Positions 9,691-39,359 of a stretch of DNA of 64,000 nt are shown piece by piece (within the stretch, counting starts at the first letter, position 1; every line of letters starts with the position of its first letter). The translations under genes and the position numbers were made by a program. The notes under the pieces were generated by a model, which was not told where the DNA came from, did no database searches, and was given only the letters and a program-made list of their open reading frames with translations. The stretch is from Octopus sinensis (Eukaryota): positions 2,728,001 through 2,792,000 of the forward strand of contig NC_043013.1 of the NCBI RefSeq assembly GCF_006345805.1, written 5' to 3'.

Positions 9691-10375
9691 AGTGTTCTTG
9701 AATTCTGAAGTTTCTTGTTTTGAAACCTCAGAAAAAATACTATTTACTATCTTGACGACACAAAGGAGAAACTATTGTGAAAAAGTGTAAGTAATGTCCG
9801 GATTTTAAATAATAAAAACAAGTGATCAAATCTTACATTTTAATGAAACTTAATCGTTAATATAGTTTCCATGATTATCTATGGCATCTTTCTATCTTCT
9901 CGTAAGCTTTTTAATCCCATTAATGTAAAACTCTTTCGGTTTCGAAGAGAGCTCAGCTTTAACTTCCTCAGTTATTTCGAGAGTTAATCCATCTAAATGA
10001 TTCTGTAAGCTACAGAACAAATGATAATCTGAAGGAGCAAGGTTCGGGGAATAAGGCGATGAGCAATTTTCTCCCCGTCAACTTCCTCGATCTTCTGTGA
10101 CGTGATCTTTATAGTGTGGGCTCCTTTTCGATTCACTAAAGCAGGCCTTTTTTTCTTCAAAGCAGCGTTCAAACGCTCTAATTGCTGACAGTAGATTTGA
10201 GCATTGATTGTGGCATTAGTTTGTAGCAACTCAAAGTGAATGAGTCCTTTGCAATCTCACCAAATAAAGAGAAAATCTTCTTCGCATGTAGTTCTCTTTT
10301 CAGCTGTGTTTGGTCCTTTTCCTCTTCACCGAGCCTATGCCTACGACGCTTAAACATTTTGACAAAAGACCCATT

Positions 10376-10881
10376 CTTTTTACATTATGTACAGTTGACG
10401 GATATTTGTCCTCATTTTGTTCGTTGTTAACACAATATTTCGGCTGATAAACCCTCCAGCCTTCATCAGGTGTCTTGGGGAAATTTAGAACCTGGATTCT
10501 CATTCCTAAGGCATGTTTCGATTCTGTCTTCTTTTCTTCTTCTCTTCTTCTTCTTCTTCTTCTTCTTCTTCTTCTTCTTCTTCTCTCTTCTCTTCTCTTC
10601 TTCTTCTTCTTCTTTTCTTCTTCTTCTTTTCTTCTTCTCTTCTCTTCTTCTTCTTTTCTTCCTTTCTTCTTCTTCGTTCTTCTTCTTCTTCTTCTTACTT
10701 CTTCAGGTCACTGCCTGGAATCGAACTCGGAATCTTGGAGTTCTTAACCACTACGCCATATGCCCACGGGCATATGAACGCTGGAGAGTATATCAGACGA
10801 AACATTGTGTTAACATCCGTCAGATGTAAATAATGAAAATAATGTATATAGTTCCTCCATTCTTATATATAGAACTGTATT
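10376..10881 (-). mobile_element. tRNA-headed SINE carrying a hammerhead ribozyme, with an inverted partial tail copy
   Basis: 12-bp TSD AAAAGACCCATT (10364-10375, 10882-10893). A box TGGCGTAGTGG (10758-10748), B box GAGTTCGATTCC (10728-10717), (AGA)n linker, HHR at 10474-10429. Confidence 0.8.
10429..10474 (-). ncRNA. Minimal type I hammerhead ribozyme motif
   Basis: gacac CTGATGA a GGCTGG agggttta TCAGCC GAAA ta TT gtgtt: intact core, 6-bp stem II (one G-U), palindromic AATATT stem III, 5-bp stem I. Confidence 0.75.
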
Positions 10882-11859
10882 AAAAGACCCATTTTTCATC
10901 AGCGGTCATCAGTCCAAAAAAGGGCGAGATGAGTTCACGGGAATGAAGAGAAGAACAAATGTTCACTCGGGATTTACGGTTGGCTTCAGACAAATCCCGA
11001 GGCACCCACTTTCTGAGTTTTGGGACCTTTCCAAGCTGTTGAAAATGGCGGTGAACAGTTGAATGGCTTAAACGAAGATTGGTTACCAAAACTTCAAAAG
11101 AAACTGCATGTTCTTTTTCGAGTTCTGCCAAAAGGAGCTTGTCATTAAACTCAACTGGACGTCCTGTTCGGGCCTCATCTTCAAGGCTGAAATCTCCACT
11201 TGGAAATTTTACAAAGCATCTTCTGCAAGTTCTTTCATTCAGGTTCTCTTCTCCATAAGCTGAGTGAATATTTCGAGTCGTTTCAGCTGCAGAGTTCCAT
11301 TTTTTTAACTCATAAAGCATTTTGTGCCTCGAATGCTCCTTAGACGCTTCCATGCTCGAAGAGTCATAATTAGAGAAATTTCAATTAAATTATTCTGCAA
11401 GATTAAATTTAATAAGGTTAAATATGTCCAAATACATATAAATATTATTTGATTGCATTAGACTTTCTAAAATACTGTTAAAGCATTTACAAATTGAAAA
11501 TATAGAAGTCCGGACATATGGATAGTCAGATATATTCACTTCACGTACTTTATAATCATTGCTACCTGTCAGTATATGATGCAATTTTTATTCTCTGTTT
11601 GTCTGTCTGTCTCTTTCTCTCTGTCTCTTTCCCCCCCTCTCTCTCTCTCTCGCCATGTACACACGCACGCACACACACACACATACACACATACACACAC
11701 AAAACTGGCGAAAGATATTGAATGTCTGTTACAAACGCATCTAAATACCAACGAATGAGATGTAAACCGCAATAGAAAGCAACAAATACGGCCAAATTGT
11801 GATAGTAGAAATGATTATGATATAGCTAACACGGTAACAACGTCAGAAAATGAAGTCAG

Positions 11860-38230: not shown

Positions 38231-39359
38231 CGTTATGCAGGATTGTTTTTATTATCTTGAGGTTTGGTTTGCACACGTACGGCCTCATCGGGAGTTGAAG
38301 GCCCGACGAAGGAAGATTATTGAAAAGTCACACAAAGAGAAGAAAACGAAACGCCGAATATGCAGAAGAATACAGTTTGAAGAATTAATTTAACATTGAA
38401 AAAATAAAATCCGAAATGTTTCCACGCGTTGGCCAATTGCCCTTCTTCAATGAACAGAAGACAGCGAGAGTATAAAAAAGAAAAAAAAAAGAGAAAAATT
38501 TGTACTAAACAATATTAGAGTTTTGGTCGAGGTGACATGGTCTTTATTGATTAACAGACAGAAATGGTGGAATGGCATTAGGCTTCAAAGGTTTGGAAAT
38601 AGGGAAATGAGTGTTCTTTTGGCAGGAAGAAGTCTATTTAAATGTTGGTACTTGTGCAGGTGCCGTCAAAATGGTCAACTTGCAGTTAGATTCATCTGCA
38701 GGCTTGACCAGATGTATCTATTCTTACAAAGTCAAACAGATTGAAATATATGGTCATAGTTGTTTTTTTGACTTCAAACGAAATCAGTCTATGCTTTCTC
38801 TATCATTTAAGTTAACTCAAAACATGAATTCTTACTTTCTTAAAATCATCTCCCCGTTCCTTTGAAAGGCACTAAAAACTGCTACAAGTTTGTTGCTTTC
38901 TTCCTTAGAAGAGAAATTAGAGAAAAATTACAGTGGATTACCTATTTACTTCATGACATTCAGTACATCACTCTTTAATTAAATTATCCAAATTCGTGTA
39001 ATTGCCTCATTTGAATTTTTCATACATCTTTTATTTCTAATTATGCAATTATTCTCAACTAAAAATATACTTAATAACTCTCCTTCTAAATAAAATTCTT
39101 TGCAAGCTTGAACATTTTTTTCCGTTCTTAAGAGGTCAATCAGACCAAAATATGTCTGTAATTGTCCCTGGCTTGCAAACTAATTTTTCCTTAAGTATGT
39201 AAATTAACTTGAGAAATTAATTCTTAATTTCTTAAAATCAACTTTCACTCCCTTTGAGACTTGAGACAATTAATGAACGCTAAGCTGTTGTTTACTATCC
39301 TCGGCATAGATGGCAATTTCTTTGACTCTATTTATACATATATCTTTTATCTTTTTTTT

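What the first reader, a model, noticed from the sequence alone, without database searches (positions are those of the whole stretch)
10364..10893. Ribozyme-bearing SINE: tRNA Pol III head, (AGA)n, hammerhead, inserted with a Penelope-style inverted tail copy
Seen: one insertion splits a mariner ORF and is flanked by a perfect 12-bp TSD (AAAAGACCCATT). On the minus strand it has an A box (10758-10748), a B box (10728-10717), an (AGA)n tract and a minimal type I hammerhead (10474-10429: CTGATGA, 6-bp stem II, GAAA, palindromic stem III, 5-bp stem I). A second, truncated copy of the HHR tail lies in the opposite orientation (10774-10881). A third tail copy at 13690-13774 keeps GAAACGTT. Known: minimal HHRs with palindromic stem III that cleave as dimers, and inverted partial copies, are hallmarks of Penelope-like elements; schistosome Sm-alpha repeats also combine a Pol III SINE with an HHR. 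Inference: a non-autonomous, Pol III-driven, self-processing retroposon mobilised by Penelope RT/GIY-YIG. I do not know a description of it in cephalopods, but could not check.
Basis: partly seen in the sequence, partly recalled or inferred. Interest (0 to 1): 0.82.

Follow-up and report, generated by a model that had tools for sequence, protein, structure and literature searches.

The report
Penelope retrotransposon with tRNA-type promoter
This apparent 'ribozyme SINE' is the end piece of a protein-coding Penelope-type jumping gene of octopus that carries a tRNA-like promoter and almost no TTTT stop signals along its 2.6-kb coding strand, so the whole element is likely transcribed by RNA polymerase III, an enzyme normally reserved for short non-coding RNAs.

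Summary
In detail: TSD, A/B boxes, minimal hammerhead and inverted partner are all present. The reading as an independent SINE does not. The ~270-nt unit (tRNA-like head, microsatellite, hammerhead, tail) is the pseudo-LTR of a Penelope/Poseidon-type element in this octopus genome. The RT/GIY-YIG ORF stops 36 nt before the A box (head follows the ORF end in 28 of 30 loci), and the 'tail' is the ORF's first ~50 codons (19 of 27 ORF-start loci). Insertions show the PLE signature: 25 of 28 inverted pairs have one long and one short 3' end, and 16 of 28 have TSDs scoring >=10.

The new part is the promoter. 5' ends pile up at -14..0 of the A box, also in ORF-bearing copies. The coding strand is nearly free of TTTT (11 runs vs 78 expected in 36.7 kb of decayed copies), unlike two Neptune ORFs in this genome and 79 relatives. 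A distant intact relative (L242) has the same layout. Best reading: an autonomous PLE likely transcribed by Pol III, shedding roughly 26,000 SINE-like arms by internal RT initiation. Pol III use and cleavage are untested; Repbase and Dfam could not be checked.

The parts
10364..10375 (.). left target-site duplication (12 bp, mariner ORF sequence)
10379..10520 (-). pLTR 3' part of the main arm = first codons of the PLE ORF (ATG at 10503-10501); ends at the 'short' 3' site
10429..10474 (-). minimal type I hammerhead with palindromic stem III; predicted cut between 10434 and 10433
   Evidence: sequence, folding; same topology by eye in 11 of the 12 relative loci printed; cleavage untested
10527..10703 (-). 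microsatellite linker, (AAG)n here, (AAT)n in most of the family
10717..10728 (-). B box
10748..10758 (-). A box
10704..10772 (-). tRNA-like head with a 13-nt deletion; 5' end at -14 of the A box (inferred transcription start)
10757..10776 (.). fold-back palindrome CATATGCCC-AC-GGGCATATG joining the two arms (inferred cDNA snap-back, then a jump at ATG microhomology)
   Evidence: 429 strand hits (about 215 sites) genome-wide
10774..10881 (+). inverted 5'-truncated arm with an internal deletion; carries the ~30-nt PLE tail (long 3' end) and 4 nt matching the ORF continuation
10882..10893 (.). right target-site duplication
10883..11359 (-). interrupted mariner transposase, N-terminal part (continues left of 10375)
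13675..13774 (-). separate 5'-truncated copy, short 3' end, incomplete hammerhead

Best explanation
[quoted passage not shown] Shown: layout head-(AAT)n-[ORF start with hammerhead]-RT-endonuclease-stop-head-(AAT)n-tail; 5' ends piled at the head; almost no TTTT on the sense strand; two 3' end classes split between the arms of inverted pairs; TSDs mostly of 11-14 bp. Inferred mechanism: (1) Pol III starts at about -14 and, meeting no T4 terminator, reads a ~3-kb pLTR-ORF-pLTR RNA; solo pLTRs give short read-through RNAs that stop at the first flanking T4. (2) The PLE protein nicks both target strands ~12 bp apart and starts reverse transcription inside the RNA at two sites ~30 nt apart, as shown for anole Poseidon, one site per strand. 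(3) Initiation in a 5' or solo pLTR runs off the RNA 5' end after ~270 nt and gives a SINE-like copy without any separate SINE lineage; initiation in the 3' pLTR gives ORF-bearing truncations. (4) The cDNA end snaps back on the TGCCC-NN-GGGCA palindrome or joins the opposite cDNA by microhomology, giving head-to-head pairs such as this one. (5) The hammerhead would cut only as a dimer or with protein help, downstream of the start codon, and does not make the template's 5' end.
For: ORF end followed by head in 28 of 30 loci and by tail in 23 of 30 (4 of the 30 appear to be one duplicated locus, three of them 98% alike with flanks). Tail directly before the ORF body in 19 of 27. Full pLTR-ORF-pLTR copy L345 starts at -14. 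The tail peptide aligns to the N-terminus of the 847-aa relative P0027 (E 8e-5). RVT_1 E 9e-9; the C-terminal model matches the I-TevI GIY-YIG domain weakly (E 0.31, prob 0.92, TM 0.71 of the target). Inverted pairs: 25 of 28 long+short, 3 short+short, 0 long+long; TSD score >=10 in 16 of 28 vs 1 of 84 mismatched controls. 5' stop rate 0.062/nt at -14..0 (25 of 38 arms) vs 0.008 inside the head and 0.003-0.004 upstream. Of 4 ORF-start loci with a head, 3 begin at -14, -14 and -4. T4 runs: 0 in 2.6 kb vs 5.6-5.8 expected, with 25 T3 runs; synonymous-shuffle P 0.0075; 11 vs 77.9 in 36,753 nt of 27 copies; TTTT is the most depleted 4-mer in L202 and L348 and second after CGCG in six pooled copies. 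Controls: two Neptune ORFs 9 and 10 vs 7.1 and 8.4 expected; 79 relatives 456 vs 319, none of the 56 with expectation >=3 at zero. L242 repeats the layout in another organism.
Against: No RNA, ChIP or activity data: only contigs were available. The copies share one ancestor, so the T4 test is one evolutionary observation (P about 0.004-0.008 for one sequence). The closest relatives (59-70% aa) had no DNA to test. L242 has 2 T4 per 2,760-nt unit (5.2 expected), so its depletion is weak. A and B boxes are no better conserved among copies than the rest of the head (0.92 and 0.91 vs 0.92-0.93); this is expected of dead copies and gives no support. The palindrome itself can stop RT or extend alignments to -14, and 247 exact read-through junctions exist. 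One of the 4 ORF-start loci with a head begins at -69. How an uncapped Pol III RNA is translated is unexplained. Pfam GIY-YIG misses this family's domain. The three long copies translated (L201-L203) are broken.
Confidence: 0.62

Rival explanations
1. Same PLE pLTR, but the full-length element is a Pol II transcript. The tRNA head is a captured SINE or tRNA piece that at most drives short pLTR RNAs, and the 5' pile-up comes from RT stopping and snapping back at the palindrome.
For: [quoted passage not shown] The head's first ~30 nt resemble another tRNA SINE in this window. The fold-back junction is precise and common. Pol II would solve the translation problem.
Against: It does not explain the sharp T3/T4 cut-off along the whole ORF (395, 68, 25, 0 runs of length 1, 2, 3, 4+), which is absent from the controls. 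AATAAA is still present 1-3 times per copy. ORF-bearing copies also start at -14.
Confidence: 0.27
2. One reading: an independent non-autonomous Pol III SINE lineage with a hammerhead, mobilised in trans by a PLE that shares its tail.
For: 83 of 95 position-picked arms have no ORF sequence. Solo pLTRs are T4-poor (13 runs in 24,663 nt) and meet a flanking T4 within 100 nt in 16 of 26 cases, so they could be templates in trans. Minor allele-frequency shift at one head column (p 0.016 uncorrected).
Against: The head is part of the autonomous element. No fixed diagnostic site and the same age.
Confidence: 0.08
3. LINE-mobilised SINE with twin-priming inversion, or chance nesting of a tRNA SINE and a PLE fragment.
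For: TSD length and microhomology joins also occur with LINEs (recalled).
Against: Both arms carry the same 3' terminus facing outward, with the PLE long/short asymmetry; linkage 25 of 29; the 3' part is PLE coding sequence.
Confidence: 0.03

Closest known systems
Penelope/Poseidon PLEs, e.g. PAc of Anolis (Frangieh 2024, PMC11167929)
   Same: RT plus C-terminal GIY-YIG-like domain; ORF starts in the hammerhead region of the pLTR; two 3' ends 30-40 nt apart; inverted truncated copies (Craig 2021, PMC8557442)
   Different: tRNA-derived A/B box in the pLTR, T4-free coding strand, discrete 5' end with snap-back junction. No Pol III promoter is described for PLEs in the passages I read.
Schistosome Sm-alpha/Sj-alpha SINE-like repeats (via review PMC6765202)
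   Same: Pol III-type promoter followed by a type I hammerhead
   Different: Those are non-coding tandem repeats with a cleaving ribozyme; here the unit is the pLTR of a coding element, mostly solo or head-to-head, with a minimal hammerhead.
Non-LTR retrozymes (PMC7229834; bioRxiv 10.64898/2026.07.22.740005)
   Same: Short pLTR-related hammerhead units attributed to PLE machinery
   Different: Defined as head-to-tail tandem arrays; the preprint has 0 occurrences of tRNA, Pol III or octopus.
TRIMp3: Cassandra, Helenus, Ajax (Kojima 2024, PMC10886601)
   Same: Small-RNA-derived Pol III promoter inside a terminal repeat
   Different: Non-autonomous LTR elements under 1.3 kb; the paper states that their autonomous partners must use Pol II.
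R2 retrotransposons (recalled; review PMC6765202 seen in passages)
   Same: Autonomous, ribozyme-bearing, non-Pol II RNA translated without a cap (recalled)
   Different: Co-transcribed with rDNA, HDV-like ribozyme at the 5' end, no promoter of its own (partly recalled).
Octopus tRNA SINEs OK/OR1/OR2 (Ohshima and Okada 1994; title seen in a reference list, family names recalled)
   Same: tRNA-derived octopus retroposons; this unit may be one of them
   Different: Could not be compared: paper not held.

Membership tests
Penelope-like element (EN+) | PLE-type RT in a single ORF | tested here: met
   RVT_1 E 9e-9; 81 relatives at E<=1e-20; ORF in four pieces in L201/L202
Penelope-like element (EN+) | C-terminal GIY-YIG endonuclease | tested here: inconclusive
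   Pfam misses it; relatives P0074 and P0083 pass the cut-off at the aligned region; best-probability fold match is I-TevI, E 0.31, prob 0.92
Penelope-like element (EN+) | pLTR direct repeats flanking the ORF | tested here: met
   L345: head+tail, ORF, head+tail
Penelope-like element (EN+) | Minimal type I hammerhead with palindromic stem III in the pLTR | tested here: met
   core intact in 18 of 33 head-picked arms
Penelope-like element (EN+) | Optional 30-40 nt tail at one end; inverted 5'-truncated partner | tested here: met
   46 long, 46 short, 3 other of 95 arms; 25 of 28 pairs discordant
Penelope/Poseidon clade | No Zn-finger linker before the endonuclease; apart from Neptune | tested here: met
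   Linker cysteines seen in the Neptune-type ORFs are absent; quick tree separates the two, SH-aLRT 100. The clade labels are my reading.
Penelope/Poseidon clade | Grouping with named reference elements | not tested
   No named PLE was in the tree (97 rows, quick method)
tRNA-derived SINE (SINE2) | tRNA-related head with A and B boxes | tested here: met
   TRGCNNARYGG and GTTCGANNC 45 nt apart in intact copies; z 3.4-7.0 against 15 distinct tRNA genes of G000; isotype unresolved; ARAGORN 0 of 9 loci and Rfam do not call it
tRNA-derived SINE (SINE2) | Separate non-autonomous lineage, head absent from the autonomous partner | tested here: not met
tRNA-derived SINE (SINE2) | 3' end from a LINE or a simple-repeat tail | tested here: not met
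   the 3' end is the PLE ORF start
tRNA-derived SINE (SINE2) | Transcribed by Pol III | not testable with these tools
   indirect only; no raw reads
Non-LTR retrozyme / Sm-alpha type | Head-to-tail tandem arrays of hammerhead units | tested here: not met
   60 position-picked loci: 28 inverted pairs and 39 single arms; a partial tandem in L008
Non-LTR retrozyme / Sm-alpha type | Self-cleavage and circular RNA | not testable with these tools
   no 5'-end pile-up at the cut site, 2 of 40

The most novel reading that the evidence does not exclude
An autonomous, protein-coding retrotransposon transcribed end to end by RNA polymerase III: a Poseidon-type PLE that captured a tRNA promoter into its pseudo-LTR, purged Pol III terminators from a 2.4-kb ORF, and through internal RT initiation makes its own SINE. 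L242 suggests the same design recurs in other animals.
Probability: 0.58. Interest if true: 0.88.

Novelty: new variant of a known kind. Interest (0 to 1): 0.76.

Why it matters
Pol III promoters in mobile elements are taken as the mark of short, non-coding passengers, and a 2024 paper states that the autonomous partners of such LTR elements must use Pol II (PMC10886601). A 3-kb coding element under a Pol III promoter would break that rule, raise the question of how an uncapped RNA is translated, and give a direct route from a PLE to a SINE-like family with no separate SINE ancestor. It also makes open PLE questions testable with thousands of natural copies: what sets the 5' end, why the tail sits on only one arm, and what the hammerhead is for. 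In practice, part of the large 'SINE' fraction of octopus genomes may be misfiled PLE ends. A/B box plus T4 depletion is a cheap screen for more cases.

Tried and rejected
Looking for the partner among Pfam GIY-YIG hits failed: none of 50 loci L061-L110 shared the tail. Those are mostly Neptune-type families, and Pfam misses this family's domain. The partner was found from flanks shared between copies. Rfam and ARAGORN do not recognise the head or the hammerhead. A PWM scan for A/B boxes behind 42 ORF ends ranked L242 first but missed the octopus head itself, so it is insensitive and not evidence of absence elsewhere. The viral contig scan found no relative. Expression: no RNA holder listed; all runs were contigs, so RNA ends, strand and level could not be read. 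MFE cofolding does not return the stem III dimer on its own; the dimer pairs were only checked as pairable. The careful tree did not finish; the quick tree is used. The findings index returned nothing. Papers not held: Ohshima and Okada 1994, the dimer-cleavage paper on PLE hammerheads, the 2015 octopus genome paper. The last literature search on octopus SINE names was swamped by unrelated terms. The supplement of PMC13282606 was listed, not read, and its consensus library is on an outside server; bioRxiv supplements are closed. Either could already list this family.

Full report
1. Observation. Every feature listed is at the stated place: a 12-bp TSD inside a mariner ORF whose frames continue across it, A and B boxes, an AAG tract, a minimal type I hammerhead (10474-10429) and an inverted arm. 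The inverted arm and the copy at 13675-13774 start inside the catalytic core and are not complete ribozymes. The window head has a 13-nt deletion and a TA in stem III where the family has CG. Rfam does not call the hammerhead or the head.

2. It is a large family. G000 holds 4,597 exact matches of a 27-nt core, control 0. That word is exact in 14 of 79 arms picked by other parts, which gives about 26,000 arms (19,000-39,000 by subset). Head and tail are linked in 25 of 29 head-picked loci, by (AAT)n in 23 of 25. Copies differ by 5.6-5.9% from column majorities; at the 0.0036/Myr rate quoted in PMC13282606 that is roughly 16 Myr (inference). The tail is exonised in gene models named Octopus sinensis and O. 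bimaculoides. Holders fall in five coded organisms, and contigs of four runs from four of them cover all 30 bins of the long element.

3. The unit is a pLTR. Several copies shared the flank upstream of the head, which translates as the end of an RT/GIY-YIG ORF. A search with that flank gave 2,959 candidates, 40 scored. In 30 fetched loci the head follows the ORF end in 28 and the tail in 23 (four appear to be one duplicated locus). The stop lies 22 nt before the palindrome TGCCC-RY-GGGCA and 36 nt before the A box. At the other end the tail runs in frame into the ORF, directly so in 19 of 27 ORF-start loci (three duplicates dropped from 30). Its peptide matches the N-terminus of a relative. 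L345 is a whole pLTR-ORF-pLTR copy. The RT is confirmed by Pfam; the endonuclease only weakly, by fold. It lacks the Neptune linker and groups apart from the genome's Neptune-type elements in a quick tree without named references. The three long copies I translated are broken.

4. Insertion anatomy is that of PLEs. In 60 loci taken in order along C1 (all carry the exact 27-mer), 95 arms end at two sites about 30 nt apart: 46 long, 46 short, 3 other. Of 28 head-to-head pairs, 25 have one of each, 3 two short and none two long. Sixteen have TSD scores >=10, against 1 of 84 mismatched controls. This matches the tail on one end only (PMC8557442, passages) and the two internal RT starts of anole Poseidon, whose protein cut and extended both strands, whose ORF starts in the hammerhead and whose ribozyme was not needed for insertion (PMC11167929, parts 1-2 of 4 read). 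The window copy fits: main arm short, inverted arm long. Only 2 of 40 tail-internal 5' ends lie near the predicted cut, so cleaved RNA is not the usual template.

5. The promoter. The head has canonical A and B boxes 45 nt apart and aligns to 15 distinct tRNA genes of G000 at z 3.4-7.0, isotype unresolved. Of 38 arms that reach the A box, 25 stop within -14..0: 0.062 per nt, against 0.008 inside the head and 0.003-0.004 upstream (ends are BLAST ends, good to a few nt). The exact fold-back junction occurs at about 215 sites (429 strand hits), about as often as the exact read-through junction (247); the window copy has it. Three of the four ORF-start loci with a head also begin at -14, -14 and -4. 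Independently, the sense strand lacks T4: 0 in 2.6 kb with 25 T3 runs, 5.6-5.8 expected; P 0.0075 under synonymous shuffling; 11 vs 77.9 in 36,753 nt of 27 decayed copies, mostly at different places; most or second most depleted 4-mer in L202, L348, L349 and the pool, rank 12 in L345. Two Neptune ORFs show 9 and 10 (7.1 and 8.4 expected), and 79 relatives show 456 vs 319 with no zero among the 56 informative ones. That T4 ends Pol III transcription is established knowledge (recalled). Against: the copies are one lineage; the closest relatives had no DNA; the boxes are not better kept than their surroundings; there are no RNA data.

6. A second case. L242, an intact tandem PLE in a metagenome contig (868 codons open, RVT_1; 38% to P0027), has after its stop a tRNA-like segment with A- and B-like boxes ending in CCA, then AATAATAATGAT, then the frame with a minimal hammerhead. 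It was the only one besides the octopus element flagged by the motif scan. It has 2 T4 per unit, both in the first 400 nt, 5.2 expected. It sits in the same weakly supported group (89) as relatives that lack both features, so shared or independent origin is open.

7. Independent SINE? Short (26) and ORF-linked (38) copies show no fixed difference over 243 columns and equal age. Because PLE RT starts inside the RNA, the 5' pLTR of a full transcript, or any solo pLTR read through to a flanking T4 (within 100 nt in 16 of 26), would give the SINE-like copy. The unit works like a SINE but fails SINE membership.

8. Prior knowledge. Ten searches found no paper describing a PLE with a tRNA-derived promoter or this octopus family. 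Seen: PMC4209133 (parts 1-2 of 4), PMC13282606 (parts 1-2 of 3), bioRxiv 10.64898/2026.07.22.740005 (parts 1-2 of 5 and a term search), PMC10886601, PMC6765202, PMC7229834 and PMC8967140 (passages), PMC2377424 (abstract). Repbase, Dfam, SINEBase and the 1994 octopus SINE paper could not be checked, so the short unit may already carry a SINE name and the long element a Penelope name.

9. Verdict. pLTR of a Poseidon-type PLE: about 0.95. Whole-element Pol III transcription: about 0.6. New variant of a known kind; interest 0.76, and 0.88 if Pol III transcription is shown.

Noticed in passing
L242:2810-3040: Intact tandem PLE of another organism with a tRNA-like segment, AAT repeat and hammerhead in the same order; possible second Pol III-type PLE.
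   Followed up: partly
window ~30450-30537 (-): A different tRNA-derived SINE whose first ~30 nt resemble this head; possible donor or sister head.
   Followed up: partly
window ~9990-11360 (-): Decayed mariner element that received the insertion.
   Followed up: partly
L091, L092, L095, L075, L078, L110: Several other PLE families in G000, some with open frames of 775-781 aa and their own hammerhead-like ends; L091 has a second long frame upstream and a different, more G+C-rich 3' region.
   Followed up: partly
P0001, P0003: Octopus gene models that begin with or include the pLTR peptide; real exonisation or annotation artefact.
   Followed up: no
P0004-P0027, P0095: Unnamed relatives at 59-70% aa identity in public assemblies; unusually close if the hosts are not cephalopods, which would hint at horizontal transfer.
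   Followed up: no
L201, L202, L203: One long copy with flanks present at least three times at 98% identity (duplication or haplotype scaffolds).
   Followed up: no
window 10774 and 13774: Both truncated arms begin at the same tail position (57); 4 of 40 tail-internal starts fall at 54-58, perhaps a stop at hammerhead stem II.
   Followed up: no
hammerhead position 7 (tail column 58): T/A polymorphism at the variable core position, 19:11 in ORF-linked copies: at least two master variants.
   Followed up: no
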